The notes under the pieces are model-generated. The model saw only the letters and a list, made by a program, of their open reading frames with translations. It did not search any database and was not told the origin of the DNA. From a virus, in the IMG/VR virus record IMGVR_UViG_3300025120_009955, positions 8,357 to 72,356 of that record: DNA of 64,000 nucleotides. The stretch is one strand, 5' to 3'. Within the stretch, counting starts at the first letter, position 1, and the number at the start of each line of letters is the position of its first letter. A program made the position numbers and the translations under genes. Shown one piece after another: positions 25,633 through 51,478 of the stretch.

Positions 25633-27507
25633 ATGCAATTAAATAAAATTAAACTAGCTCTTGGTTTTATCACTGTAGCGACCCTAGCTTCATCAGGTGC
25701 GTTTGCGGCGGCAGATCAAGAGAAAGCAATGGCAAATGCTAACAACTGGGCACACCCTAGAGGTCAGCACGATAACCAGGCTTATTCTAAGTTGACTCAA
25801 ATCAACAAAGGTAATATTAAAAATCTTAAAGCGGCTTGGACATTAAGTACAGGCGTAAATAGAGGACACGAAGGTGCCCCTCTAGTTATTGGTAATATGC
25901 TATATGTACATACAGCATTTCCAAATAACGTATATGCTTTAGATTTAAACAACAACCAAAAAGTTGTATGGTCTTACTTCCCTAAACAAGATCCTAGCGT
26001 TCAAGCAGTTCTATGTTGCGATAACGTTAACCGTGGTCTTGGTTTTGGTAACGGTAAAATCTTCTTACAACAAAACGATGGTATGTTAGTAGCATTAGAT
26101 GCAAAAACAGGTGCTAAAGTTTGGGACGTAAGTAATACAGATCCTAAAGTTGGTGCTACAAATACTAACGCTCCTCACGTAATTAAAGACAAAGTTCTTA
26201 CTGGTTGTTCTGGTGCAGAATTTGGTGTTCGTTGCTTTATAGCGGCATATAACATTGAAGACGGTTCTTTAGCTTGGAAAGCTATGAGTACAGGTCCTGA
26301 CGAAGAAGTATTAATTGGTAAAGATTTCAACAAAGAAAATCCACTTTATTCAGCTCTATCAGTTTACGAAGATGTAAACGGTGGTAACGTTGAAGGCGGT
26401 TCTTTCAAAAGAATTCCAACTGATCAACTTGAAGCTCCAGTAGCAGACCTAGGTCTTAAGACTTGGTTGAAACCACAAGCTGTTAAAGATGGTTGGCAAC
26501 ACGGTGGTGGTTCTGTATGGGGTTGGTGGCCATATGATGCTAAGACTAACTTAGTATACTACGGTACAGGTAATCCTTCAGTATGGAATCCAGATGTACG
26601 TCCAGGTGACAACAAATGGTCTATGACAGTGTTCGCACGTGATCTAGATACAGGTATGGCACGTTGGGGTATGCAAATGACACCACACGATGAATGGGAT
26701 TATGACGGTATTAACGAAGTTATCCTATTTGACAAAGGTGGAAAAACATACGCTTGGCACCATGACAGAAACGGTTTTGCATACACTTGGGTAGCTAGTA
26801 ACGGTACTTTAGTTTCAGCTGAAAAAGTGCATCCATTCGTTAACTGGTCAACTGGTATTGATCTTAAAACTGGTGTGCCACAAAAAGAAGCGGCACATTC
26901 AACACACCAAGATTACAACACTAAAGGCACTTGTCCTGCGGCACTTGGTACTAAAGACCAACAGCCTGCGGCATATTCACCTAAGACAGGTTTAATATAC
27001 TCACCACTTAACCACGTATGTATGACATACGAACCAGTTGAGTCTAAGTATGTTGCTGGTCAACCTTGGGTTGGTGCTACTTTAACTATGTTTGCTGGTC
27101 CTGATGGCGTAATGGGTGGCTTTGCCGCTTATGATCCAATGACTAACAAAAAAGTATGGTACAACAAAGAGAAATTCTCAGCTTGGGGCGGTGCATTAAC
27201 AACAGCTTCAGACTTAGTTTTCTATGGTACTTTAGATCGTTGGTTTAAAGCGTTAGATGCAAAATCAGGTAAAGAACTTTGGAAATTCCAAGTTGGTTCT
27301 GGCGTGATTGGTAATGCGTTTACGTACTCACACAAAGGCAAACAGCACGTTGGCGTACTATCAGGTATTGGTGGTTGGGCTGGTGTTGCTATGAACCTTG
27401 GTCTAACAAATGACACAGATGCACTTGGTGCGGCTGGTGGTTATAAAGAGTTAACAAAGTATAATGCGGCTCCAGGTGGCGGTGCATTAACAGTGTTCTC
27501 ACTATAA
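25633..27507 (+). CDS. xoxF: lanthanide-dependent PQQ methanol dehydrogenase XoxF (Methylophilaceae XoxF4-like)
   Basis: signal peptide, vicinal CCD, GAEFGVR, GNPS.WN, DEWDYDG with the extra lanthanide-binding Asp (MxaF has DYAG). Confidence 0.95.
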   Translation: MQLNKIKLALGFITVATLASSGAFAAADQEKAMANANNWAHPRGQHDNQAYSKLTQINKGNIKNLKAAWTLSTGVNRGHEGAPLVIGNMLYVHTAFPNNVYALDLNNNQKVVWSYFPKQDPSVQAVLCCDNVNRGLGFGNGKIFLQQNDGMLVALDAKTGAKVWDVSNTDPKVGATNTNAPHVIKDKVLTGCSGAEFGVRCFIAAYNIEDGSLAWKAMSTGPDEEVLIGKDFNKENPLYSALSVYEDVNGGNVEGGSFKRIPTDQLEAPVADLGLKTWLKPQAVKDGWQHGGGSVWGWWPYDAKTNLVYYGTGNPSVWNPDVRPGDNKWSMTVFARDLDTGMARWGMQMTPHDEWDYDGINEVILFDKGGKTYAWHHDRNGFAYTWVASNGTLVSAEKVHPFVNWSTGIDLKTGVPQKEAAHSTHQDYNTKGTCPAALGTKDQQPAAYSPKTGLIYSPLNHVCMTYEPVESKYVAGQPWVGATLTMFAGPDGVMGGFAAYDPMTNKKVWYNKEKFSAWGGALTTASDLVFYGTLDRWFKALDAKSGKELWKFQVGSGVIGNAFTYSHKGKQHVGVLSGIGGWAGVAMNLGLTNDTDALGAAGGYKELTKYNAAPGGGALTVFSL

Positions 27508-27533
27508 TCTAGTTAGTTAGATTGTATTACTTT

Positions 27534-27561
27534 AAAAAGGCTCTTTCGGGGGCCTTTTTTT
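27534..27561 (+). terminator. rho-independent terminator after xoxF
   Basis: AAAAAGGCTCT-TTCG-GGGGCCTTTTTTT. Confidence 0.8.
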
Positions 27562-27586
27562 ATCAATTAAACTATAAACAATAAAT

Positions 27587-30427
27587 ATGACTATGAGCTT
27601 AACTAAACCAGTTGATTACGGCACACCATTAAAAACCACAAAACCCACTATTACCCTCGAAATTGACGGTGTTGAAACTACTGTGCCTGAAGGTACAAGT
27701 ATTATGGCGGCCGCAAAAATTAACGATACTAGTATTCCAAAACTCTGCGCCACGGATAGTCTAGAACCATTTGGTAGCTGTAGACTTTGTTTGGTTGAAA
27801 TAGAAGGTAGAAAGGGTTATCCTGCAAGCTGTACCACACCTGTAAGCGAGAATATGAAGGTACGCACCCAAACACCAAAACTAGAAGAACTAAGACGTGG
27901 AGTAATGGAATTATATATTTCCGATCACCCATTAGACTGCCTAACCTGTGCAACGAATGGTGACTGTGAATTACAAGATATGGCAGGTGCTGTTGGCCTA
28001 AGAGATGTTCGTTACGGCTTCGATGGTGAAAATCATTTAGCCCAAGAGAAAGATAAAACAAATCCGTACTTTACATTTGACCCTAGCAAGTGTATTGTGT
28101 GTTCACGATGCGTTAGAGCGTGTGAAGAAGTACAAGGTACATTTGCCTTGACTATAGAAGGTAGAGGATTTGATTCAAAGGTATCAGCAGGTAATAAAGA
28201 CTTTATGGATTCAGAATGTGTTAGCTGTGGAGCCTGTGTTCAGGCCTGTCCAACAGCAACACTGATAGAAAAAACAGTAGAAGAACACGGAGTACCTGAT
28301 CGTAGTGAAACAACAACCTGTGCTTATTGTGGTGTTGGGTGTAGTTTCAACGCTGAAATGAAAGGTGATCAATTGATACGTATGGTGCCAAACAAAGACG
28401 GTGGTGCTAATCACGGACACAGTTGTGTCAAAGGACGTTTTGCCTGGGGATATGCTACACACAAAGATAGAATAACAACTCCAATGATACGTAAGTCTAT
28501 CAACGATCCATGGAAAGAAGTAACCATGGAAGAAGCTATTGATTATGCCGCTACAGAAATAAAAAGATTACAGAAAGAACACGGCCGTAATTCAGTAGGT
28601 GGTATAACATCAAGTCGTTGTACCAATGAAGAAACATATGTTGTACAAAAATTAGTACGTGCGGCACTTGGAAATAATAATGTAGACACCTGTGCTAGAG
28701 TTTGCCATTCACCAACAGGATATGGATTAAAAAGCACCTTAGGTGAAAGCTCTGGAACACAAGACTTTGACAGTATCAGAGAAACAGATGTAGCAGTTAT
28801 AATAGGTGCTAATCCTACAGACGGACATCCAGTGTTTGCTAGTCATATGAAACGTAGACTACGTGATGGAATGAAATTAATAGTAATTGATCCACGTGAG
28901 ATTGACATATTACATACCATACACGGCAATGGTGGGTTACACCTACAGCTTAAACCAGGCACTAATGTAGCAATGATAACCAGCATAGCACACGTCATAG
29001 TAACAGAAGGGCTTTGTCAAGAACAATACATAAACGATCGTTGTGAATTAGACAGCTACGAAATGTGGAAAGAATTTGTTAGTAAAAAAGAAAACAGTCC
29101 AGAAGTATTAGGACTAGAAACAGGAGTTGATCCTGAATTAATACGTGAAGCCGCGAGAATATATGCTGAACCTGGTAATTCAGCATTTTACTATGGACTA
29201 GGAGTAACAGAACATAGCCAAGGAACAACAATGGTTATGGGAATAGCTAACTTGGCAATGGCTACTGGTAACCTAGGTAAAAATGGAGCAGGAGTAAATC
29301 CATTACGTGGACAGAACAATGTCCAAGGTGCTTGTGATATGGGTAGTTTCCCACACGAGTTTCCAGGTTATAGGCACGTCAGCGAACAATCAACTAGAGA
29401 TCTTTTTGGTAACCATTGGGGAGTTGAATTAGATCACGAGCCAGGCCTACGTATTCCTAATATGTTAGACTTTGCTATAGGTGGAAAGTTTAAAGGAATC
29501 TATATCGAAGGTGAAGACATAGCACAAAGTGATCCAAATACTAAACACGTGACACGGGCCTTAGAAGAAATGGAATGTGTCATAGTACAGGATTTATTCT
29601 TAAATGAAACAGCTATGTATGCACACGTATTTTTACCTGGATCAAGTTTCTTAGAGAAGTCAGGTACCTTTACTAATGCCGAAAGAAGAATAAGTCCAGT
29701 AAGAAGAGTAATGGCTCCTAAGAATGGATATGAAGATTGGGAAATAACACAGATGCTATCTAATGCACTTGGTTACAAAATGAACTATGCAAGTGCTTCA
29801 GAAATACTTGATGAAATAGCAGAACTAACTCCAACCTTTAAAGGAGTAAGTTGGGCTAAATTAAGAGAACTAGGCAGTATACAATGGCCTTGCAATGATG
29901 AGCATCCTACAGGCACTCCTATTATGCACGTCAATGAGTTTGTGCGAGGTAAAGGAAAATTTTGGATTACAGAATACATTCCAACTGATGAGAAAGTTAA
30001 TCAACGCTTTCCGTTAATACTAACAACTGGGCGTATACTAAGTCATTACAATGTAGGTGCTCAGACTAGAAGAACTAAAAACTCAGAATGGCATCAAGAA
30101 GATCTATTAGAAATACATCCAACAGATGCAGAAGCACGTGGAATCAATGATGGTGATCCAGTTAACATTAAGAGTCGTGCAGGGCATACATCTTTAACCT
30201 GTCGTGTTACGGAACGTGTACAGCCAGGCGTAGTATATACAACATTCCATCATCCGTGGAGTGGAGCAAATGTTATCACAACTGATAACTCAGACTGGGC
30301 TACTAACTGTCCAGAGTTTAAAGTAACAGCAGTAGAAATTAGTCTAGCAGTAGAAAACAGTGAGTGGCAGAAACAGTATGAAAAATTCAGTGACACACAA
30401 AAAACTTTAGCAGAAGTACGTGACTAA
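27587..30427 (+). CDS. fdsA: NAD-linked molybdopterin formate dehydrogenase alpha subunit (FdsA-type)
   Basis: N-terminal 2Fe-2S and 4Fe-4S Cys motifs, CAYCGVGC, active-site CARVCH (Cys, not Sec), RGQNNVQG, molybdopterin-binding C-terminus. Confidence 0.93.
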   Translation: MTMSLTKPVDYGTPLKTTKPTITLEIDGVETTVPEGTSIMAAAKINDTSIPKLCATDSLEPFGSCRLCLVEIEGRKGYPASCTTPVSENMKVRTQTPKLEELRRGVMELYISDHPLDCLTCATNGDCELQDMAGAVGLRDVRYGFDGENHLAQEKDKTNPYFTFDPSKCIVCSRCVRACEEVQGTFALTIEGRGFDSKVSAGNKDFMDSECVSCGACVQACPTATLIEKTVEEHGVPDRSETTTCAYCGVGCSFNAEMKGDQLIRMVPNKDGGANHGHSCVKGRFAWGYATHKDRITTPMIRKSINDPWKEVTMEEAIDYAATEIKRLQKEHGRNSVGGITSSRCTNEETYVVQKLVRAALGNNNVDTCARVCHSPTGYGLKSTLGESSGTQDFDSIRETDVAVIIGANPTDGHPVFASHMKRRLRDGMKLIVIDPREIDILHTIHGNGGLHLQLKPGTNVAMITSIAHVIVTEGLCQEQYINDRCELDSYEMWKEFVSKKENSPEVLGLETGVDPELIREAARIYAEPGNSAFYYGLGVTEHSQGTTMVMGIANLAMATGNLGKNGAGVNPLRGQNNVQGACDMGSFPHEFPGYRHVSEQSTRDLFGNHWGVELDHEPGLRIPNMLDFAIGGKFKGIYIEGEDIAQSDPNTKHVTRALEEMECVIVQDLFLNETAMYAHVFLPGSSFLEKSGTFTNAERRISPVRRVMAPKNGYEDWEITQMLSNALGYKMNYASASEILDEIAELTPTFKGVSWAKLRELGSIQWPCNDEHPTGTPIMHVNEFVRGKGKFWITEYIPTDEKVNQRFPLILTTGRILSHYNVGAQTRRTKNSEWHQEDLLEIHPTDAEARGINDGDPVNIKSRAGHTSLTCRVTERVQPGVVYTTFHHPWSGANVITTDNSDWATNCPEFKVTAVEISLAVENSEWQKQYEKFSDTQKTLAEVRD

Positions 30428-31295: not shown

Positions 31296-31340
31296 TAATA
31301 TTGTATAATGGTAGTCATTGAGTACTAAATATTAATGTAC

Positions 31341-31388
31341 TCGTTCATCCCATCAGGGACGGAAGTAGGCATAAGCTGAAGGAACGCT
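31341..31388 (+). ncRNA. glutamine riboswitch (glnA/Downstream-peptide class)
   Basis: CGTTC...TCCC-ATCA-GGGA-CGGAAGTAG-GC-ATAA-GC-TGAAG-GAACGC three-way junction with E-loop motif. Confidence 0.8.
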
Positions 31389-31409
31389 TCTTTTTAAAAG
31401 GAGATAGCT

Positions 31410-31601
31410 ATGTATACTGAAGAATATACATCCACCATATTAGAAATTGCAACACTATTAGATCTCGAAGTTAAAGAAGTAACTAACTTCCTTGAGCTAA
31501 TGCTAGATGGTTACGGTTTTACTGATGCTCTTCACGGAACGCATTTAACCAGAGATGACTGTGAACTAGTGTTAGCAGAACTTAAGAAAAGAAAAAAATA
31601 A
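31410..31601 (+). CDS. hypothetical small protein downstream of the glutamine riboswitch
   Basis: 63 aa, AAGGAG RBS. Confidence 0.7.
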   Translation: MYTEEYTSTILEIATLLDLEVKEVTNFLELMLDGYGFTDALHGTHLTRDDCELVLAELKKRKK

Positions 31602-31962: not shown

Positions 31963-32009
31963 TATTAACGTAGCACATAAGTTATCTACGCATATTTTTA
32001 AATACTAAT

Positions 32010-32375
32010 ATGAAAGTAAACGAATTTTTTAAACACAATTTTGTTCTGATTCCAGTTATAGCATCAGTCATTTTTGGTACTGTAACAGGTATCAAGTATG
32101 TTATTGATCTTACAAACACTATTGATGCCAACAACCAACGTGTTGAAAAACTATTAGGTGACCTAGAAGGCATCGACGACAAATATCGAGACAAGATTGA
32201 CACTCTTAAAGACGATTTGAATGAAGCTGAAAACTTGAACTCACAAGAAATAGCTGAACTAAAAGCAGAAGTTGCTAAACTAGATTCAGCATTACGTATG
32301 GGTGAAGATCTTTATCGAGTGTTAGCAGATCAGGTTAGAGAACAATCATATGATATTAAAGACCTTAATCGCTAG
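32010..32375 (+). CDS. membrane-anchored coiled-coil protein
   Basis: one TM helix then heptad repeats. Confidence 0.65.
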   Translation: MKVNEFFKHNFVLIPVIASVIFGTVTGIKYVIDLTNTIDANNQRVEKLLGDLEGIDDKYRDKIDTLKDDLNEAENLNSQEIAELKAEVAKLDSALRMGEDLYRVLADQVREQSYDIKDLNR

Positions 32376-33051
32376 TATAATCCTACTTACTATAAGTCAA
32401 TCAGTACTTGCTCGTAACGACTACCTAAACGGACAATCCTGGCAACAGTGTAATAAAGGAACTATTTCAACCTACGGTAGTTACAATCAACAAGACAACA
32501 CTAACTACAATGGGCAAAATTATCCTGGTAGGTTGAGTGATAACTCCAGTAACTTTGGTGGCAGTCAAGGGGACAGTCAACAAATTGGCATAAACTTTAC
32601 CTGGTTTTTAGGTAGTAACTGTACAGACGAAGTACAAGACTTTATGTTTGACTCAATGAAGATCAACAGACAACTTGAACTAGCTAAAATGTGTCAACGC
32701 TACAAGCATAAAGAACTACCAGATAACTTTGCTGAACTTAGATCAGTGTGTGCAGGCTTTCCAGATGATATTGAGAATGAGCATAGACCACCAGAAGGTA
32801 GTGGTAGTTACTATGATGAACTCTTGCAAGAAATTAAAGACGGCAAACATCCTGACAAGAATCCTAAAAAATATCATTCAGACGATGTTAAGGTACCTTT
32901 CCAAGATAGTTTAAAACTAAAGTATGATGGTAAGGATACTAAAACACATAAATTAAAAGTTCCTAAGGGAATGGATAAACCTCGTCTGACAGACGAGTAT
33001 GGTCTTCCATTGCCCTACACAATACCTGAACCTAAAGTAGTGTTCGAATAA
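32350..33051 (+). CDS. secreted hypothetical protein
   Basis: signal peptide, four Cys. Confidence 0.65.
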   Translation: MILKTLIASIILLTISQSVLARNDYLNGQSWQQCNKGTISTYGSYNQQDNTNYNGQNYPGRLSDNSSNFGGSQGDSQQIGINFTWFLGSNCTDEVQDFMFDSMKINRQLELAKMCQRYKHKELPDNFAELRSVCAGFPDDIENEHRPPEGSGSYYDELLQEIKDGKHPDKNPKKYHSDDVKVPFQDSLKLKYDGKDTKTHKLKVPKGMDKPRLTDEYGLPLPYTIPEPKVVFE

Positions 33052-33110
33052 GTTCTAGTAAAATCTCATTTTTGATAGTATAATATAATTAATTTATATA
33101 GGAGTTATCT

Positions 33111-33356
33111 ATGAAAGTATTACGATTTACAGCAGTCTGGTGTGAACCGTGCAAGATGTTAGCAAAGAATTTAGACAATGTTACAACACAAGTGCCTATC
33201 CAGGTACTCGATATTGACAAAGAAGAAGATTTAGCTAGACACTTTAATGTGCGTTCAGTACCAACATTAGTTATGATTAATGAGGACAAGAAAGAAGTAA
33301 AACGTGTAGTTGGAGTGCAATCAGTAAAACAACTTAACCAGTTTATCAATGAATAG
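33111..33356 (+). CDS. thioredoxin
   Basis: WCEPC, SVPT. Confidence 0.9.
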   Translation: MKVLRFTAVWCEPCKMLAKNLDNVTTQVPIQVLDIDKEEDLARHFNVRSVPTLVMINEDKKEVKRVVGVQSVKQLNQFINE

Positions 33357-33530
33357 AAACTAATGGTTTTCAGTATGCTTTTTATATAAAAGTATCATAT
33401 AATTAACATAAGTAATAACAGTAACACGTTGTTACTCAAAGAAGCGAATCATCAAATTGGACCTGTGGTAACACTCTCCAATGATTTGGCTAGCCGACAT
33501 ATTATTAATTTTTTAAAAAGGAATACTATT

Positions 33531-33602
33531 ATGTGGACTACACCTCAAGCAACTGAAATGCGTTTCGGTTTTGAAGTAACTATGTACGTAATGAACAAGT
33601 AA
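33531..33602 (+). CDS. pqqA: pyrroloquinoline quinone precursor peptide PqqA (23 aa, not in ORF track)
   Basis: MWTTPQATEMRFGFEVTMYVMNK with E-x-x-x-Y; AAGGA RBS; own terminator. Confidence 0.95.
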   Translation: MWTTPQATEMRFGFEVTMYVMNK

Positions 33603-33625
33603 TACCTGTTTATACAATACAGATT

Positions 33626-33655
33626 AAAAAAGCACTCTTCGGAGTGCTTTTTTTT
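33626..33655 (+). terminator. rho-independent terminator after pqqA
   Basis: AAAAAGCACTC-TTCG-GAGTGCTTTTTTTT. Confidence 0.85.
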
Positions 33656-33713
33656 GACTTATTATTCAGACTATGTTATAATAACAATTAACTCTTAACA
33701 GATAAATACTAGT

Positions 33714-34433
33714 ATGAGATACTTGTTTGCTGTAGCGTTATTAGTACTTTCATTCGTGGCTTCATCTGCACCGAATCCAGACTTATGGCCGTATGTGCAA
33801 GAAAGATTATTCAATGACCGTATAGCAGTAGAAGCAGATCCTCTAGAGCTATCTATAGATGGACCAAAAAGAGCGGCAAGTGGTGCTCAAGTTCCTATTA
33901 CTATCAAAGTAAATTCAAAAAAATTCAAAAAACTATATCTTATAATAGATGCTAATCCTACACAGCACGCCGCCACATTTACGTTAACTGAAAGCACTCA
34001 AACAACTGAGATAATGACACGTATTAGGATGGAAACAGATAGTTTTGTCCGTGTAATCGCTGAAGATGAAAATGGGCATTTATCAATGAGTGCAAAAGCT
34101 ATTAGAGCATCAGGTGGTTGTAGTGGATATATGGATTCAAGCGATCCTGAATTAACCAAAGCCTTAGGTAAAATCCTTTACAAAGCTAAAAACGGGTACC
34201 AGACGACTAGAATTAAACATCCTATGTTTACTGGACTACAAAAAGATTCAATTAACGGATGGTATGTACCAGAATGGATTATTAACCGTGTAGAATGGTA
34301 TGACGGTGCTTTACTAGTAATGTCAGTAGACACTAATATTTCAATGTCACAAGATCCATATTTTAAATTTAAATATTCAAGTCCTGTTACAATCATAGCA
34401 ACAGATACTAAAGACAATAAATGGTCTAAGTAG
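33714..34433 (+). CDS. quinoprotein dehydrogenase-associated SoxYZ-like carrier
   Basis: signal peptide; SoxY-like half (LIIDANP, TRIRMETDS.VR, ASGGC) fused to SoxZ-like half (IKHPMFTGLQKD, ISMSQDPY). Confidence 0.85.
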   Translation: MRYLFAVALLVLSFVASSAPNPDLWPYVQERLFNDRIAVEADPLELSIDGPKRAASGAQVPITIKVNSKKFKKLYLIIDANPTQHAATFTLTESTQTTEIMTRIRMETDSFVRVIAEDENGHLSMSAKAIRASGGCSGYMDSSDPELTKALGKILYKAKNGYQTTRIKHPMFTGLQKDSINGWYVPEWIINRVEWYDGALLVMSVDTNISMSQDPYFKFKYSSPVTIIATDTKDNKWSK

Positions 34434-34505
34434 TATTCTTTTCTTGCATTTTATCCAAAAAGAATGTATAATATTGTATTATTAACGTTAACTCGGAGAA
34501 GCCAC

Positions 34506-34766
34506 GTGGAAAATGAATTAGAAACAGTAATTACTAGTGAAAGTTTAGATGTCGAACAAGCATCACAGAACATAGGCGGAAGTCGATTTGATCTAATATT
34601 AATTGCGTCACATCGGGCACGTGATATAGCAAATACACGTAAAATTGCAGAGAGAGGTAACCCTGATAAGAAATGGTCTTGTAGACCTACTACAGAAGCA
34701 TTGCACGAAATTGAAACAGGAAGTATTGGTAGAGAACTTTTAGACCAAATAGCAAAGGAAAAATAG
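34506..34766 (+). CDS. rpoZ: RNA polymerase omega subunit-like protein
   Basis: SRFDLILIASHRARDI...PTTEALHEIETG; GTG start after GGAG. Confidence 0.8.
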   Translation: MENELETVITSESLDVEQASQNIGGSRFDLILIASHRARDIANTRKIAERGNPDKKWSCRPTTEALHEIETGSIGRELLDQIAKEK

Positions 34767-34769
34767 TTT

Positions 34770-35015
34770 ATGGCAGAAGATAAAAAAGCAAAGAAGGAAG
34801 AATTACCTTTTCACGATGTAAGTCTTATAGCTAAGGCAAGGAAAGCTGAGAAAGAAAAGGAACAAAAAGAACACGAAGAAGCATTAGAAAGATTCTTTGC
34901 GGCTGGTGGTAAAGTACAGTACGTTACTGAAGGAGACGGTAACAGCGATAAAAGTACAGCGTCATCAGTATGGGGACGAAGAAAGAAAAAAGAGCCTGAA
35001 GTTAAGAAGAAGTAG
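34770..35015 (+). CDS. hypothetical basic protein
   Basis: FFAAGGKVQ motif; Lys/Glu rich. Confidence 0.6.
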   Translation: MAEDKKAKKEELPFHDVSLIAKARKAEKEKEQKEHEEALERFFAAGGKVQYVTEGDGNSDKSTASSVWGRRKKKEPEVKKK

Positions 35016-35020
35016 GTTAT

Positions 35021-35095
35021 GCACCCATCGTCTATCGGTTAGGACACCGGGTTTTCATCCCGGCAAGGGGAGTTCGATTCTCCCTGGGTGTACCA
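35021..35095 (+). tRNA. tRNA-Glu(TTC)
   Basis: cloverleaf; anticodon arm CCGGG-TT-TTC-AT-CCCGG; encoded CCA. Confidence 0.93.
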
Positions 35096-35100
35096 ATTTT

Positions 35101-35176
35101 GCCCTCTTAGCTCAGTTGGTAGAGCAACGCACTTGTAATGCGTAGGTCGTCAGTTCGAATCCGACAGAGGGCACCA
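35101..35176 (+). tRNA. tRNA-Thr(TGT)
   Basis: cloverleaf; ACGCA-CT-TGT-AA-TGCGT; encoded CCA. Confidence 0.95.
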
Positions 35177-35182
35177 AGATAA

Positions 35183-35272
35183 GGAAGTGTGGCTGAGTGG
35201 CTTAAAGCTCTGGTTTACTAAACCAGTGATCGGGAAACTGGTCCGTGGGTTCGAATCCTACCACTTCCGCCA
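35183..35272 (+). tRNA. tRNA-Ser(ACT)
   Basis: type II tRNA with long variable arm, G73 discriminator, CTGGT-TT-ACT-AA-ACCAG. Confidence 0.88.
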
Positions 35273-35285
35273 ATAAATACAGTAT

Positions 35286-37298
35286 ATGATTAAAAAGATA
35301 TTATTAAGTCCGTGGACAGCAGTTGTTACGCTGTCCATAATTGTTTATATAGCACTAAGTAGTCCTATATTTTTAGAATCGGTTAAGTTAAGATACTTCG
35401 ACCAACTAATTACCTCACAGCCTGAACAACAAACAACAATAGCAACGGTTAACATAGATGAAGCAAGTCTAGACAAGTATGGGCAGTGGCCATTCAGTCG
35501 TGATGTATATGGTGACATAATCAAAGACCTATATGATCGTGGTGCCGGTTTAGTAGTATGGAACATATTAATGTCTGAAGAAGACCGATTGGGTATGGAT
35601 CATAAGCTACAAGAAGTATTACGAGAACACCCTGTTGTTTTACCGTTAGTGGGTGCAGAAGAAACTAAAAATTCACCACGCAATCCTGGTGCAGTTATGA
35701 TAGGTGATCCTACAAACAAAGTAGTAGAGTATCCAGGTATACTATCAAGTATTGATCATCACGAAAGTCTGGCATATGGTAGTGGTATAAGTTCAGTATT
35801 TCCAGAAGTAGATGGTGTAACTCGTAGGATGCCGTTAGTAATTAAAAGTGGAGATACACTGTACCCAAGTTTAGGTTTAGAAGTCCTACGCATATTAGCA
35901 GGTGATCCAAGTTTCCAAATTAAATTTTCAGACATAGGCATTGACAAACTACGTGTACCACAGTTTGGTATTGTTTCAACAGATCCTGTAGGGCGTATAT
36001 GGATTGATCATCAACAGCGTCCTCAGAGTTATAGTCTAACAGAATTACCAGAAACATTTGATAGTGGTATAGTTATAGTAGGAACATCAGCCGCGGGCAT
36101 TGCAAATCCGATAGCAACTAGTCGTGGTGAAGTATGGCCGCAAGACTTACAAGCGAGTGTGATAGCAACATTAGCAAGTGGTATCAATATTCAACGTCCA
36201 GACTGGGCAAGAGGTGCTGAATTATTAACACTAATTACCTTAAGTATTTTACTGCTACTACTGTCTAGATGGATATATGTAGGGCTAGGTGTAAGCATTG
36301 TTGTACTAGGTAGCCTAGTGCCAGTTACAGAATACGTATACGCAGAATATTTAATGTTGTTTGATGCTACTCTAGTACTAGGTGGCGGAATACTTGTGTT
36401 ATTGCACGCATATGGTATTAAGTTTGTAAGTGAATACCTGCAGAAACAACAGATCAAGAAACAGTTTGGAACATACCTATCACCGGCTATGGTTGAGAAA
36501 CTACAGAAAAATCCAGAGCTATTGAAGTTAGGTGGAGAAACAAGACAGTTAAGCATAATGTTTACAGATGTACGTGGATTTACAACTATATCAGAACACT
36601 ATGGCGATGATGTACAAGGACTTACTAGTATCATGAATCGTTATATGACTGCTATGACTGAGAAGATTATTGAAAACGGTGGCACAATAGACAAATATAT
36701 TGGAGATGCCCAGATGGCTTTCTGGAATGCTCCTATAGACGACCCCGATCACGCAGAGAACGCTGTAAGAACAGCATTAAAGATGATAGGGAGTTTGAAT
36801 GAGTTTAATGAAGAAATTAAAAAAGAAGGTATACCACCTTTTGCAATGGGATTGGGGATTAATTCCGGTTCTTGTGTCGTTGGGAATTTTGGTAGTGTTC
36901 AACGTTTCGATTATACTTGCCTCGGGGATACTGTCAACTTGGCCGCAAGGTTAGAAGGACAGAGTAAAAACTACGGAGTTGATATTATATTAGGTCAAGG
37001 CACTGTGGAATATATAAAACACAAGATTGATGTAGGATTAATTGAACTAGATAATATCGCAGTTAAAGGAAAAACACAAGGAGTTAAAATATATACAATT
37101 GGTAATGTTGAAGTGAGTAAACATCAAGAATTCCTTGACAACTACTACGCAGGCAATTGGGAAGATGCTCTTTACATAGCTAGAAGATTTGCAAACGATG
37201 ACAATGTTATCTCTGGCTATTATCAAAAAATGGTCGAAAGACTTATACAAGGGTGCCCAGACGATTGGGACGGAACATTTCGAGCAAAAACTAAATAA
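35286..37298 (+). CDS. CHASE2-domain class III adenylate/guanylate cyclase
   Basis: IDEASL..YGQWPFSR, DGVTRR (CHASE2); TM helices; FTDVRGFT, DKYIGDA, GDTVNLAARLEG. Confidence 0.93.
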   Translation: MIKKILLSPWTAVVTLSIIVYIALSSPIFLESVKLRYFDQLITSQPEQQTTIATVNIDEASLDKYGQWPFSRDVYGDIIKDLYDRGAGLVVWNILMSEEDRLGMDHKLQEVLREHPVVLPLVGAEETKNSPRNPGAVMIGDPTNKVVEYPGILSSIDHHESLAYGSGISSVFPEVDGVTRRMPLVIKSGDTLYPSLGLEVLRILAGDPSFQIKFSDIGIDKLRVPQFGIVSTDPVGRIWIDHQQRPQSYSLTELPETFDSGIVIVGTSAAGIANPIATSRGEVWPQDLQASVIATLASGINIQRPDWARGAELLTLITLSILLLLLSRWIYVGLGVSIVVLGSLVPVTEYVYAEYLMLFDATLVLGGGILVLLHAYGIKFVSEYLQKQQIKKQFGTYLSPAMVEKLQKNPELLKLGGETRQLSIMFTDVRGFTTISEHYGDDVQGLTSIMNRYMTAMTEKIIENGGTIDKYIGDAQMAFWNAPIDDPDHAENAVRTALKMIGSLNEFNEEIKKEGIPPFAMGLGINSGSCVVGNFGSVQRFDYTCLGDTVNLAARLEGQSKNYGVDIILGQGTVEYIKHKIDVGLIELDNIAVKGKTQGVKIYTIGNVEVSKHQEFLDNYYAGNWEDALYIARRFANDDNVISGYYQKMVERLIQGCPDDWDGTFRAKTK

Positions 37299-50905: not shown

Positions 50906-51085
50906 ATGAGATATATAAATTGCTTTACAAAAAGCCCTACAACTAAACAGATAGTGAAACATTCACCTGGACTAGTCGCAGGAATTGCACTAATATTAAT
51001 AATGAACCCATACCTAGCAATTGCAGGTATAGCATTAATTGTCGGTGAATTTGTAGGAATTGCAGACGAATTAGAATTGTTGTAA
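50906..51085 (+). CDS. hypothetical small membrane protein
   Basis: GGAG RBS; hydrophobic; ends just before tmRNA. Confidence 0.5.
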   Translation: MRYINCFTKSPTTKQIVKHSPGLVAGIALILIMNPYLAIAGIALIVGEFVGIADELELL

Positions 51086-51086
51086 T

Positions 51087-51418
51087 CCCTTCGAAGTGAA
51101 GGCGTTGCGGACAGGGGTTCGATTCCCCTCATCTCCACCAAAGTGTTTTTGAAACAGAGTATTTTAGGGGGATGACCAGGTTTCGACGTGGCGAGATAGC
51201 AGAGACGGCAACACGGTAGGCGATGACCGTAAATCAAGCAAAACTTATAGATGCAGAAAAAACATCTAAATTCGAAACTGTAAAAGTAAGTATGGGCAAA
51301 GGCTTCCGCTTTGGCTCTGCTGACCGTGCAGTTGCGTTAGCGTAAAAACTAACATCGACGGGGTAGTTATACCTTGTTACCAAAAATAGCAGAAGCCCAC
51401 TTCGGTGGGTTTCTTTTT
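51087..51418 (+). ncRNA. ssrA: circularly permuted (two-piece) tmRNA
   Basis: T-arm plus CATCTCC-ACCA (ends 51140) precedes GGGGATG (51168) giving G3.U70; tag ORF 51253-51345; terminator 51391-51418; 5' boundary approximate. Confidence 0.88.
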
Positions 51419-51478
51419 GGTTACAAAAAGGTTGTATAAATATTTTGACTAGTGTATAATATATTACAAGTATACTAG

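What the first reader, a model, noticed from the sequence alone, without database searches (positions are those of the whole stretch)
33421..33655. Stand-alone pqqA transcription unit missed by ORF calling, with a structured leader
Seen: 23-aa MWTTPQATEMRFGFEVTMYVMNK with its own RBS and terminator and no pqqB-E nearby. The leader has GTAAC-N5-GTTAC (33421-33435) and a long imperfect hairpin AATCA..TTGGA..GTG-GTAA-CAC..TCCAA-TGATT (about 33447-33486) with a GNRA loop. Inference: the phage carries only the consumable substrate of PQQ synthesis, and the leader is a candidate cis-regulatory RNA.
Basis: partly seen in the sequence, partly recalled or inferred. Interest (0 to 1): 0.75.

Follow-up and report, generated by a model that had tools for sequence, protein, structure and literature searches.

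The report
Conserved folded RNA leader before phage pqqA
A marine phage of methanol-eating bacteria carries the tiny gene for the PQQ cofactor precursor together with a folded RNA leader copied from its host's own pqqA gene; this leader is absent from the RNA family catalogue and probably controls how much of the peptide is made.

Summary
Window 33531-33602 encodes a genuine 23-aa PqqA (Pfam 41.6 bits, cut-off 21.1; NCBIfam equivalog). It has an RBS and a UUCG-loop terminator, and no pqqB/C/D/E lies in the 72-kb viral record. Viral pqqA itself is already published (Lake Baikal phages, 2020).

The new part is the leader. Taken alone, the 33447-33486 hairpin is no more stable than shuffled sequence. 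It nevertheless belongs to a conserved RNA motif, three stacked helices P0-P1-P2 with two internal loops. I found 66 instances (53 distinct). Of these, 53 lie in phage contigs and 13 in small-genome Methylophilaceae. All lie just upstream of a pqqA reading frame, which is broken in one phage contig.

P1 occurs in 19 sequence versions, 15 of them fully paired, and ten loop nucleotides are invariant. A model built without the window still finds the window copy (33.3 bits, E 6.5e-6). In the host genus, 33 of 42 genomes carry exactly one copy. Rfam 15 has no match.

The GTAAC-N5-GTTAC element is a separate stem-loop near the predicted 5' end, seen mostly in the phage copies.

Function is inferred: a cis-regulatory switch on pqqA translation that binds an unknown factor. 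A PQQ riboswitch is possible but untested. This scan had already noted the same leader on other DNA (e1-6044773, e1-5379892).

The parts
33361..33377 (+). Box upstream of the promoter (TAATGGTTTTCAGTATG), immediately before the -35 position; possibly a UP-like or activator site.
   Evidence: This is the only perfect match in the 64-kb window. A loose form of the box occurs in 76 of 125 phage pqqA upstream regions and in the host loci. It aligns with L331.
33375..33403 (+). Inferred promoter: weak -35-like ATGCTT (33375-80), 17-nt spacer, perfect -10 TATAAT (33398-403).
   Evidence: Direct reading. Over 33361-33415 it is 82% identical to the stretch before the motif in L331, where the aligned -35 reads TTGATT. 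It fell below the scan tool's threshold. No start-site data.
33411..33436 (+). Hairpin 1, a stem-loop near the predicted 5' end of the transcript. The MFE stem pairs 33411-19 with 33428-36.
   Evidence: Fold gives -8.2 kcal/mol, z -3.4. The equivalent position in L331 and L104 holds a different complementary stem, GTAAGA/TCTTAC. 33 of 44 distinct phage copies fold at -5 kcal/mol or lower here, against 5 of 13 host copies.
33441..33496 (+). pqqA-leader RNA motif (extent of the model hit). P1 pairs 33456-61 with 33477-82. P2 pairs 33465-67 with 33472-74, with loop GUAA at 33468-71. P0 in the window's own register pairs 33447-51 with 33482-86. Invariant loop letters: UCAA 33452-55, U33464, UC 33475-76, GA 33483-84, U33487. 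C33462 is 98% conserved.
   Evidence: Model R2, built without the window, scores it 33.3 bits, E 6.5e-6; the next best hit in the window is 16 bits. Covariation. Invariant letters.
33518..33523 (+). Ribosome-binding site AAGGAA, 7 nt before the ATG.
   Evidence: Direct reading. AAGGAG sits at the same place in most of the 54 aligned leaders.
33531..33602 (+). pqqA, 23 codons plus stop, with Glu16 and Tyr20.
   Evidence: PF08042 41.6 bits; TIGR02107 38.1 bits. The peptide is identical to the first PqqA of host locus L257.
33626..33655 (+). Intrinsic terminator: A-run, GCACTC-TTCG-GAGTGC, eight T. The palindrome could act in both directions.
   Evidence: A terminator-like hairpin follows pqqA in 59 of 125 phage loci.
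33654..33682 (+). Strong sigma-70-type promoter of the next gene (SoxYZ-like carrier), abutting the terminator. It marks the downstream edge of the pqqA cassette.
   Evidence: TTGACT, 17 nt, TATAAT: 11 of 12 matches, with TG before the -10.

Best explanation
The stretch is a small self-contained gene cassette in a large phage of OM43-type Methylophilaceae: promoter, 5' stem-loop, structured leader, pqqA, terminator.

The phage supplies only PqqA, the peptide consumed one molecule per PQQ made. It relies on the host's PqqB-E. This fits the PQQ-dependent XoxF-type methanol dehydrogenase that it encodes 6 kb upstream.

The leader hairpin at 33447-33486 is a copy of the regulatory RNA that precedes the first of the two tandem pqqA genes in the host genus. 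The RNA has three stacked helices (P0, P1, P2) separated by two internal loops whose letters never change.

I infer that it acts in cis on the pqqA mRNA as a factor-dependent switch. A small molecule or a protein would bind the invariant loops and stabilise P0. In many copies P0 competes with a stronger hairpin just before the Shine-Dalgarno sequence, and with pairing between CU-rich loop letters and the Shine-Dalgarno sequence itself. Binding would thereby set translation.

Shown: the gene, the motif, its covariation, and its exclusive link to pqqA in phages and hosts. Inferred: transcription start, switching, and the identity of the factor.
For: Gene and context
- PqqA HMM matches. XoxF-type dehydrogenase TIGR03075 at 607.9 bits against 480, and a quinoprotein-associated SoxYZ-like carrier.
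- No pqqB-E in the record, with a positive host control.

Motif and covariation
- A search on conserved flanks only picked 16 of 125 phage leaders. In 13 of them the 5-nt arms were fully complementary, and in 1 they were 4 of 5.
- On a sequence-only MAFFT alignment of 15 copies, 90.1% of cells pair. Shuffles give 64.0% (0 of 500 reach the observed value) and slid partners give 34-49%. 12 of 13 pairs show double changes.
- With 13 host copies added: 93.7% against 70.2%. RNAalifold predicts P0 and P1 by itself.
- 38 further phage hits gave 85.3% against 67.8%, with P1 at 97.7%.
- 19 versions of P1 occur; 15 pair 6 of 6 and 4 pair 5 of 6. Many close with G-U, which only works on the sense RNA strand.
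- Ten unpaired letters are invariant in 53 distinct sequences, and the window keeps all ten.

Specificity
- In 1.12 Mb of phage loci there were no hits other than the pqqA leaders.
- In 0.84 Mb of host loci there were 3 hits, all before pqqA.
- Genome scans gave one hit per genome: 11 of 151 family genomes, 33 of 42 genus genomes, and 1 of 151 order genomes, that one being the centre genome itself.
- 37 of the 38 new hits are followed by an intact pqqA 24-49 nt later.

Membership and switch
- A model built without the window finds the window copy at E 6.5e-6.
- Switch hints: forcing P0 costs about 4.7 kcal/mol on average. In 22 of 54 leaders P0 is complementary while its 3' strand pairs downstream in the MFE fold.

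Not coding: 47 of 54 leaders have an in-frame stop.
Against: - No ligand, protein or expression data exist. The leader at 33368-33481 had no cover in the four RNA runs laid, and the deep pqqA contigs there are of host type.
- The window hairpin alone is not unusually stable.
- The window's P0 is out of the family register: 2 of 4 pairs in register, with an alternative 5-bp register instead.
- The competing hairpin is found in only 22 of 54 leaders, and 13 of 54 form P0 in their MFE fold.
- Predicted Shine-Dalgarno accessibility shifts only from 0.42 to 0.53.
- The motif is small and confined to one host genus and its phages. That pattern is more typical of protein-binding leaders than of classical riboswitches.
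- A2 and A3 are alignments fitted to the model. Many copies are related. Three A3 rows repeat training rows.
- Model E-values are rough because of the short calibration.
Confidence: 0.55

Rival explanations
1. The leader is a passive structure. It would be a stable 5' fold that protects the very abundant pqqA mRNA from 5'-end-dependent decay, or that organises the ribosome landing site, without sensing anything.
For: - In hosts the motif begins about 12-14 nt after a -10-like TATAAT, which puts it at the predicted 5' end of the mRNA.
- Phage copies add another 5' stem-loop.
- Host-type pqqA contigs reach word depths of 1311-2038 in one metatranscriptome, where neighbouring stretches are near 10.
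- 13 of 54 leaders form P0 by default, and some have no competing hairpin.
- That 5' stem-loops stabilise mRNAs such as ompA is recalled knowledge, not tested here.
Against: - A protective hairpin needs pairing, not ten invariant unpaired letters in two internal loops beside freely varying stems.
- P0 covaries although it is thermodynamically disfavoured against a neighbouring hairpin.
- Only the first of the two tandem host pqqA genes carries the motif.
Confidence: 0.3
2. It is specifically a metabolite-sensing riboswitch, for PQQ, a PQQ intermediate, a lanthanide or a second messenger, that turns pqqA translation on or off.
For: This is a sub-case of the best explanation.
- The architecture (covarying stems, invariant internal loops, variable terminal hairpin) and the exclusive link to one cofactor gene resemble single-hairpin riboswitch classes found before cofactor genes. 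Examples are the nadA and folE motifs, of which I saw only the abstracts in the listings.
- P0 competes with a downstream hairpin in 22 of 54 leaders.
- A c-di-GMP riboswitch is listed next to a pqqA gene in Methylophaga (PMC12530212, Table 4 passage).
- Streamlined OM43 genomes are said to rely on riboswitches (PMC9004378 passages).
Against: - No binding data.
- Narrow taxonomic range.
- The expression platform is not universal.
- No resemblance to any Rfam family, the c-di-GMP classes included.
Confidence: 0.25
3. The inverted repeats act at the DNA level, as an operator for a dimeric transcription factor.
For: The element lies close to the promoter, and a conserved box sits just upstream of the -35 position.
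Against: - The arms change sequence freely while staying complementary: 19 versions of P1 and 21 of P0. An operator would do the opposite.
- The closing pair is G-U in most copies, and P0 uses U-G pairs. These are mismatches in duplex DNA and on the opposite strand.
- The inner hairpin varies in length from a few to about 30 nt.
Confidence: 0.03
4. The hairpin is a chance fold in AT-rich spacer, or the leader is the coding N-terminal extension of the 57-aa TTG reading frame 33429-33602.
For: - Single-sequence z-scores are -1.4 and -1.8.
- The TTG frame is open through the leader in the window.
Against: - Conservation and covariation across 66 copies.
- A window-blind model hits the window at E 6.5e-6.
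- 47 of 54 homologous leaders have in-frame stops, and motif lengths fall in all three classes modulo 3.
Confidence: 0.02

Closest known systems
Viral PqqA and methanol dehydrogenase of Lake Baikal phages predicted to infect Methylophilaceae (Coutinho et al. 2020, PMC7678222; passages read)
   Same: A phage genome encodes the PQQ precursor peptide, and a methanol dehydrogenase, as auxiliary metabolic genes while relying on host PQQ enzymes.
   Different: The passages I read do not mention a leader RNA. The present phage is marine. Its pqqA sits behind a host-derived structured leader, next to a SoxYZ-like carrier gene.
Single-hairpin riboswitch classes upstream of cofactor genes, for example the nadA motif (NAD+, PMC6859854) and the folE motif (THF-II, PMC11317127); only their abstracts in search listings were seen
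   Same: A short RNA found exclusively in front of one cofactor-biosynthesis gene. Conserved letters sit in internal loops, stems covary, and the element lies next to the ribosome-binding site.
   Different: No sequence or structure match to any Rfam 15 family. The ligand is unknown and binding untested. The range is one bacterial genus plus its phages.
c-di-GMP riboswitch listed beside a pqqA gene in Methylophaga nitratireducenticrescens (PMC12530212, Table 4 passage)
   Same: A precedent for riboswitch-type control next to pqqA in a marine methylotroph.
   Different: A different, catalogued RNA class. The present motif does not match the c-di-GMP families at E up to 10.
Glutamine riboswitch carried by Melnitz-like OM43 phages (Buchholz et al. 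2022, PMC9004378; passages read)
   Same: A phage of streamlined marine methylotrophs carrying a cis-regulatory RNA. This window also has such a glutamine riboswitch at 31340-31390.
   Different: According to that paper the host lacks the glutamine element. The pqqA leader, by contrast, is nearly universal and single-copy in the host genus and was evidently copied from it.
PeSL cassettes of T4-type phages (Arbiol et al. 2010, PMC2839356; abstract read)
   Same: [quoted passage not shown] Here the terminator at 33626-55 abuts the promoter at 33654-82, and pqqA is an exchangeable cassette found in unrelated phage backbones.
   Different: PeSL mobility and mini-circles were not tested here. The pqqA leader motif is host-derived and is not a generic phage cassette element: no other copy occurs in 64 kb.

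Membership tests
PqqA precursor peptide (PF08042 / TIGR02107) | Profile match above the curated cut-off | tested here: met
   PF08042: 41.6 bits against 21.1. TIGR02107 equivalog: 38.1 bits against 20.
PqqA precursor peptide (PF08042 / TIGR02107) | Glu-X3-Tyr pair that is cross-linked to build PQQ (the definition is recalled), in a peptide of about 20-40 residues | tested here: met
   E16-V-T-M-Y20 in a 23-aa peptide.
PqqA precursor peptide (PF08042 / TIGR02107) | Partner enzymes PqqB, C, D and E available | tested here: not met
   None of the four is in the 72-kb record. They are present in host G142 at 329,989-333,019. The peptide would depend on the host, as inferred.
pqqA-leader RNA motif (uncatalogued; defined here) | Scores with a covariance model that was not trained on it | tested here: met
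   R2 was built from 38 other phage copies. It scores window 33441-33496 at 33.3 bits, E 6.5e-6, filters off over 64 kb; the next hit is 16 bits.
pqqA-leader RNA motif (uncatalogued; defined here) | Six-pair P1 and the ten invariant loop letters (UCAA; U; UC; GA; U) | tested here: met
   P1 pairs 33456-61 with 33477-82, 6 of 6. All ten letters are present.
pqqA-leader RNA motif (uncatalogued; defined here) | P0 helix in the family register | tested here: not met
   Only 2 of 4 pairs are standard in register. The window instead pairs 33447-51 with 33482-86, five positions closer to P1.
pqqA-leader RNA motif (uncatalogued; defined here) | Lies a few tens of nt upstream of a pqqA start codon | tested here: met
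   The motif ends at 33496 and the ATG is at 33531. The gap is 24-49 nt in 37 of 38 other hits.
Riboswitch (generic) | Conserved aptamer-like fold with covariation, tied to genes of one pathway | tested here: met
Riboswitch (generic) | Expression platform: mutually exclusive pairing that changes access to the RBS or forms a terminator | tested here: inconclusive
   P0 competes with a downstream hairpin in 22 of 54 leaders. Mean predicted RBS accessibility rises from 0.42 to 0.53 when P0 is forced.
Riboswitch (generic) | Direct, selective binding of a small molecule | not testable with these tools
   Needs in-line probing or calorimetry.
Any Rfam 15 family (c-di-GMP-I/II and glutamine included) | Covariance-model match | tested here: not met
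   Nothing at gathering score. Nothing over the hairpin at E up to 10 in the window, or at E up to 1 in six other copies.
PeSL-type promoter/stem-loop cassette | Strong sigma-70-like promoter joined to a stem-loop terminator beside small accessory genes | tested here: met
   Terminator 33626-55 plus an 11-of-12 promoter at 33654-82. Only the abstract of the defining paper was read. Recombination and mobility were not tested.

The most novel reading that the evidence does not exclude
The motif is the aptamer of a new riboswitch class that senses PQQ or a PQQ-pathway signal: an intermediate, a lanthanide, or a second messenger. That would be the first natural RNA sensor for a quinone cofactor. 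Phages would have captured it together with pqqA, so that the viral supply of precursor peptide stays coupled to the infected cell's cofactor demand.
Probability: 0.22. Interest if true: 0.85.

Novelty: new variant of a known kind. Interest (0 to 1): 0.62.

Why it matters
PQQ is the cofactor of the methanol dehydrogenases that drive marine and freshwater C1 turnover. PqqA is consumed stoichiometrically, so control of its supply matters. No RNA-level control of pqqA in Methylophilaceae turned up in the papers I searched or in Rfam 15.

The element is a compact, well-supported orphan regulatory RNA with a clear genetic context, so ligand or partner hunting is directly testable. Its capture by many phages shows that viruses can copy host regulatory RNA along with an auxiliary metabolic gene.

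It also exposes an annotation gap. pqqA is unannotated in four, and overlapped by a wrong-strand ORF in one, of the five cultured Methylophilaceae phage loci inspected.

Tried and rejected
Approaches that led nowhere, and readings I rejected:

- Single-sequence folding gave no signal.
- BLAST of the leader against 125 phage pqqA upstream regions found nothing; the best hit was 13 nt at E 0.058. An exact hairpin pattern found 0 viral contigs. The family only appeared when the leaders were read side by side.
- Synteny through the SoxYZ-like gene gave 8 viral relatives, none with pqqA.
- Rfam gave nothing.
- Thermodynamic switch modelling was inconclusive.
- RNA runs: the leader at 33368-33481 had no cover in four RNA runs. 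The deep contigs over the pqqA coding part carry the host-type leader in their loose ends. Contigs cannot show a start or an end, so no transcript boundaries were obtained.
- The coding extension (57-aa TTG frame) is rejected: 47 of 54 homologues have in-frame stops.
- The DNA-operator reading is rejected on G-U pairs and freely varying arms.
- I considered kink-turn, loop E and UAA/GAN-type internal loops from memory only. None fitted cleanly and none is claimed.

What was left unsearched or unseen:

- Nine loci of the second viral scan (L373-L381) were not searched with the model.
- Literature: searches found no paper describing a pqqA leader RNA. One search was too loose to be informative.
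- Supplementary files were not opened. Gene tables of the OM43-phage and Baikal papers may list pqqA or the leaders.
- The P19250A paper was not in the library search results.
Full report
**What is in the window.** Reading 33000-34100 shows ATG 33531 to TAA 33600-33602, encoding MWTTPQATEMRFGFEVTMYVMNK. An AAGGAA ribosome-binding site lies at 33518-23. A terminator follows: GCACTC-TTCG-GAGTGC at 33632-47, then eight T. The peptide matches Pfam PqqA (E 1.1e-10, 41.6 bits, cut-off 21.1) and the NCBIfam equivalog TIGR02107 (38.1 bits, cut-off 20). The mechanical ORF list shows it only as the tail of a 57-aa TTG frame, 33429-33602.

**The source record and its neighbours.** The window is part of an IMG/VR virus record of 72,356 b that CheckV rates 20% complete. 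Neighbouring genes include:
- ribonucleotide reductase, GroEL and an ATP-dependent ligase, and DnaK;
- a PQQ-dependent methanol/ethanol-family dehydrogenase at 25633-27507 (TIGR03075, 607.9 bits against 480);
- a formate dehydrogenase alpha subunit, and at 33714-34433 a quinoprotein-associated SoxYZ-like carrier;
- three tRNAs, a tmRNA and a glutamine riboswitch.

**No other pqq genes.** None of pqqB, C, D or E is found in the record. All four score above cut-off in host genome G142 at 329,989-333,019, which serves as the positive control.

**Phage pqqA is common and mostly unannotated, but already published.**
- blastn against 50,697 phage records matched the pqqA coding part in nine Methylophilales/Methylophilaceae phage records: MEP301, Venkman, P19250A, MEP401, MEP402 and four Melnitz isolates.
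- In the five loci I opened, the peptide is intact. It is unannotated in four of them, and in Melnitz a wrong-strand ORF overlaps it.
All 125 genes examined (119 contigs, 5 isolates, the window) are intact 23-25-codon frames.
- The five complete isolate genomes have no pqqC and no pqqE (0 of 5 each).
- The four OM43-phage papers in the library listing do not contain the word pqqA. However, Coutinho et al. 2020 (PMC7678222, passages read) report PqqA and methanol dehydrogenase in Lake Baikal phages of methylotrophs. The 'substrate-only' auxiliary gene is therefore known.

**The hairpin judged on its own.** The z-score is -1.41 for 33440-95 (15 of 200 shuffles fold as well) and -1.80 for 33400-535. 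GTAAC-N5-GTTAC occurs once where 2.59 matches are expected. BLAST found no similar leader, and an exact pattern found none in viral contigs.

**The hairpin judged comparatively.**
- Listing the 100 nt before each of the 125 phage pqqA genes revealed a shared architecture in a subset. It reads: UCAA(R), a 5-6-nt arm, C-Y-U, a variable inner hairpin, U-C, the complementary arm, then GA-N-Y-U.
- A search anchored only on the flanks, ignoring the arms, picked 16 of 125 leaders. In 13 the arms were complementary at 5 of 5 positions, in 1 at 4 of 5, and in 2 at 2 or fewer. One more copy, L061, was added by eye.
- On the sequence-only MAFFT alignment of these 15 (A1), a three-helix structure pairs in 90.1% of cells. 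Column shuffles give 64.0% (0 of 500 reach the observed value) and slid partners give 34-49%. 12 of 13 pairs show changes on both sides, and P1 is 98.9% paired.

**Specificity of the motif.**
- Model R1 found only those 15 copies in 1,122,471 b of phage loci, the whole window included.
- In 843,161 b around pqqA genes of bacterial assemblies it found three new copies, each just before a pqqA gene.
- Whole-genome scans gave exactly one hit per positive genome. The counts were 3 of 5 chosen genomes; 11 of 151 genomes of the family, all 1.2-1.4 Mb; 1 of 151 of the order, which was the centre genome itself; and 33 of 42 of the genus, where the nine negatives are 0.8-1.1 Mb assemblies.
- That genus also contains a single-cell genome titled 'uncultured OM43 clade bacterium' (L245 = G004).
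- In 12 of the 13 host loci inspected, the motif directly precedes the first of two tandem pqqA genes. The thirteenth contig ends inside the first gene.
- The window's peptide is identical to the first PqqA of L257.
- In G142 the pair lies about 103 kb from pqqBCDE and 1.4 kb from a SoxYZ-fusion gene. The unlinked pqqA and the SoxYZ neighbour in the phage therefore mirror the host.

**An additional, partly independent set of phage copies.**
- A second viral scan used the ribosome-site-to-start pattern and gave 109 new loci. R1 hit 38 of the 100 I searched. 37 of these 38 are followed by an intact pqqA 24-49 nt later, and one has a broken frame.
- On this set the structure pairs in 85.3% of cells against 67.8% shuffled (0 of 500), with P1 at 97.7%. 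Two measures that count pairs or pair types did not exceed shuffles (72 and 459 of 500). P0 is weaker here, at 75.9%. Three rows duplicate training rows.
- Model R2, built from these 38 only, finds window 33441-33496 at 33.3 bits, E 6.5e-6. The next best hit in 64 kb is 16 bits. R2 also finds the host copies at E 1.9e-10 to 6.0e-6.
- Over all 66 copies (53 distinct), P1 occurs in 19 versions: 15 pair 6 of 6 and 4 pair 5 of 6. P0 occurs in 21 versions.
- Ten unpaired letters are invariant: UCAA, U, UC, GA and U. The window has all of them.
- Frequent G-U and U-G pairs place the structure on the sense RNA strand.
- 47 of 54 distinct leaders have in-frame stops, so the leader is not coding.
- Rfam 15 has no match, either at gathering score or at E up to 10 over the window copy, or at E up to 1 over six other copies.

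**Anatomy of the window copy.**
- P1 pairs 33456-61 with 33477-82.
- P2 pairs 33465-67 with 33472-74, capped by GUAA.
- The internal loops are CCU/UC and UCAA/GA-UUU.
- P0 is not in the family register, where only 2 of 4 pairs are standard.
- GNRA loops are frequent on P2 (GAAA, GCAA, GUAA) but not universal, and P2 length varies widely.

**The GTAAC element and the promoter.**
- The stretch 33361-33415 is 82% identical to the stretch before the motif in L331. The alignment shows a shared upstream box, a -35 (TTGATT in L331, ATGCTT here), a 17-nt spacer and a -10 (TATAAT here). A stem-loop follows whose arms differ but stay complementary: GTAAC/GTTAC here, GTAAGA/TCTTAC in L331 and L104.
- The 45 nt before the motif folds at -5 kcal/mol or lower in 33 of 44 distinct phage copies (26 with z at or below -2). 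Among host copies the figures are 5 of 13 and 0 of 13.
- No transcription start is shown. The scan tool did not call this promoter.
- Downstream, the terminator abuts an 11-of-12 promoter for the SoxYZ-like gene. This layout resembles the PeSL cassettes of T4-type phages, of which I read only the abstract. A terminator-like hairpin follows pqqA in 59 of 125 phage loci.

**How it most likely works (inference).**
- Invariant internal loops beside covarying stems point to a specific binding surface, not to mere stability.
- In the folded leaders, the 3' strand of P0 often doubles as the 5' strand of a stronger hairpin that ends right before AAGGAG. CU-rich loop letters can also pair with the ribosome site.
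- Forcing P0 and P1 costs about 4.7 kcal/mol on average (-16.6 against -21.3) and raises the mean unpaired probability of the ribosome site from 0.42 to 0.53.
- P0 is complementary in 42 of 54 leaders, its 3' strand pairs downstream in 24, both conditions hold in 22, and P0 forms by default in 13.
- This fits a factor-stabilised switch on translation, but it is not universal, so I hold it at moderate confidence. A passive stabiliser is the main rival.

**Expression data.** The phage stretch is held nearly complete, at 94% or more of sampled words, in 15 DNA runs of 10 studies. In four RNA runs, contigs over the pqqA coding part reach word depths of 1311-2038. Their loose ends read the host-type leader, so they report host pqqA. 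The window's leader was not covered.

**Comparison with what is known, and novelty.** Phage pqqA is already known. The leader RNA is absent from Rfam 15 and from the papers found by searches. The nearest precedent is a c-di-GMP riboswitch listed beside a Methylophaga pqqA. Earlier notes of this scan, on other DNA, describe the same folded leader before phage pqqA (e1-6044773, e1-5379892). I read them after building and testing the motif here, and they agree with it.

**Verdict.** The leader is a real, host-derived, uncatalogued cis-acting RNA. Its mechanism and its binding partner remain to be tested.

Noticed in passing
window 31340-31390 (+), ORF 31410-31601: A glutamine riboswitch (RF01739, 61.9 bits against 35) sits directly before a 63-aa ORF with no family match. 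This is the kind of element reported for Melnitz-like OM43 phages.
   Followed up: partly
window 25633-30427: The phage encodes a PQQ-dependent methanol/ethanol-family dehydrogenase (TIGR03075, 607.9 bits) and a formate dehydrogenase alpha subunit (TIGR01591, 884.8 bits). Together with pqqA and the SoxYZ-like carrier they form a C1-oxidation gene set.
   Followed up: partly
window 51031-51436; 35021-35272: The tmRNA matches both the permuted and the beta-proteobacterial models. ARAGORN reads an unusually long tag peptide from it. Three tRNAs are present (Glu-UUC, Thr-UGU, and a Ser read with anticodon ACU).
   Followed up: no
host loci L254-L265, between the two tandem pqqA genes (for example L255:1665-1793): A conserved hairpin of about 48 nt, followed by a U-rich tract and the second gene's ribosome site. 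RNAalifold predicts 22 pairs, 5 of them with compensatory changes, in 9 genomes. It may be a partial terminator or a processing site separating pqqA1 from pqqA2.
   Followed up: partly
window 33361-33377; many loci, for example L058, L023, L255: A box of the form TAATG-R-TTTTC lies just upstream of the -35 position. It occurs in 76 of 125 phage pqqA loci and also in host loci, but only once, as a perfect match, in the 64-kb window. Its function is unknown; it may be a UP-like or activator site.
   Followed up: partly
L002-L006 (cultured phages MEP301, Venkman, P19250A, MEP401, Melnitz-1): pqqA is intact but unannotated in four records. In Melnitz-1 it is overlapped by an annotated hypothetical ORF on the opposite strand. 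None of these five loci carries the leader motif.
   Followed up: yes
L004 and L002, next to pqqA; window 35286-37298: Signalling-nucleotide enzymes lie near phage pqqA genes: a GGDEF/EAL protein in P19250A, a putative phosphodiesterase in MEP301, and a CHASE2 adenylate/guanylate cyclase 1.7 kb downstream in the window. This is possibly coincidence. A c-di-GMP riboswitch is listed beside a pqqA gene in Methylophaga.
   Followed up: no
L363:12313-12369 and downstream: One phage contig keeps the leader motif, but its pqqA frame is cut short after the RFG motif. This is either a decaying copy or an assembly error.
   Followed up: no
window 32000-35000: This phage stretch is held nearly complete (94-99% of sampled words) in 15 seawater, marine and brine metagenome runs of 10 studies. 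The phage is therefore widespread.
   Followed up: no
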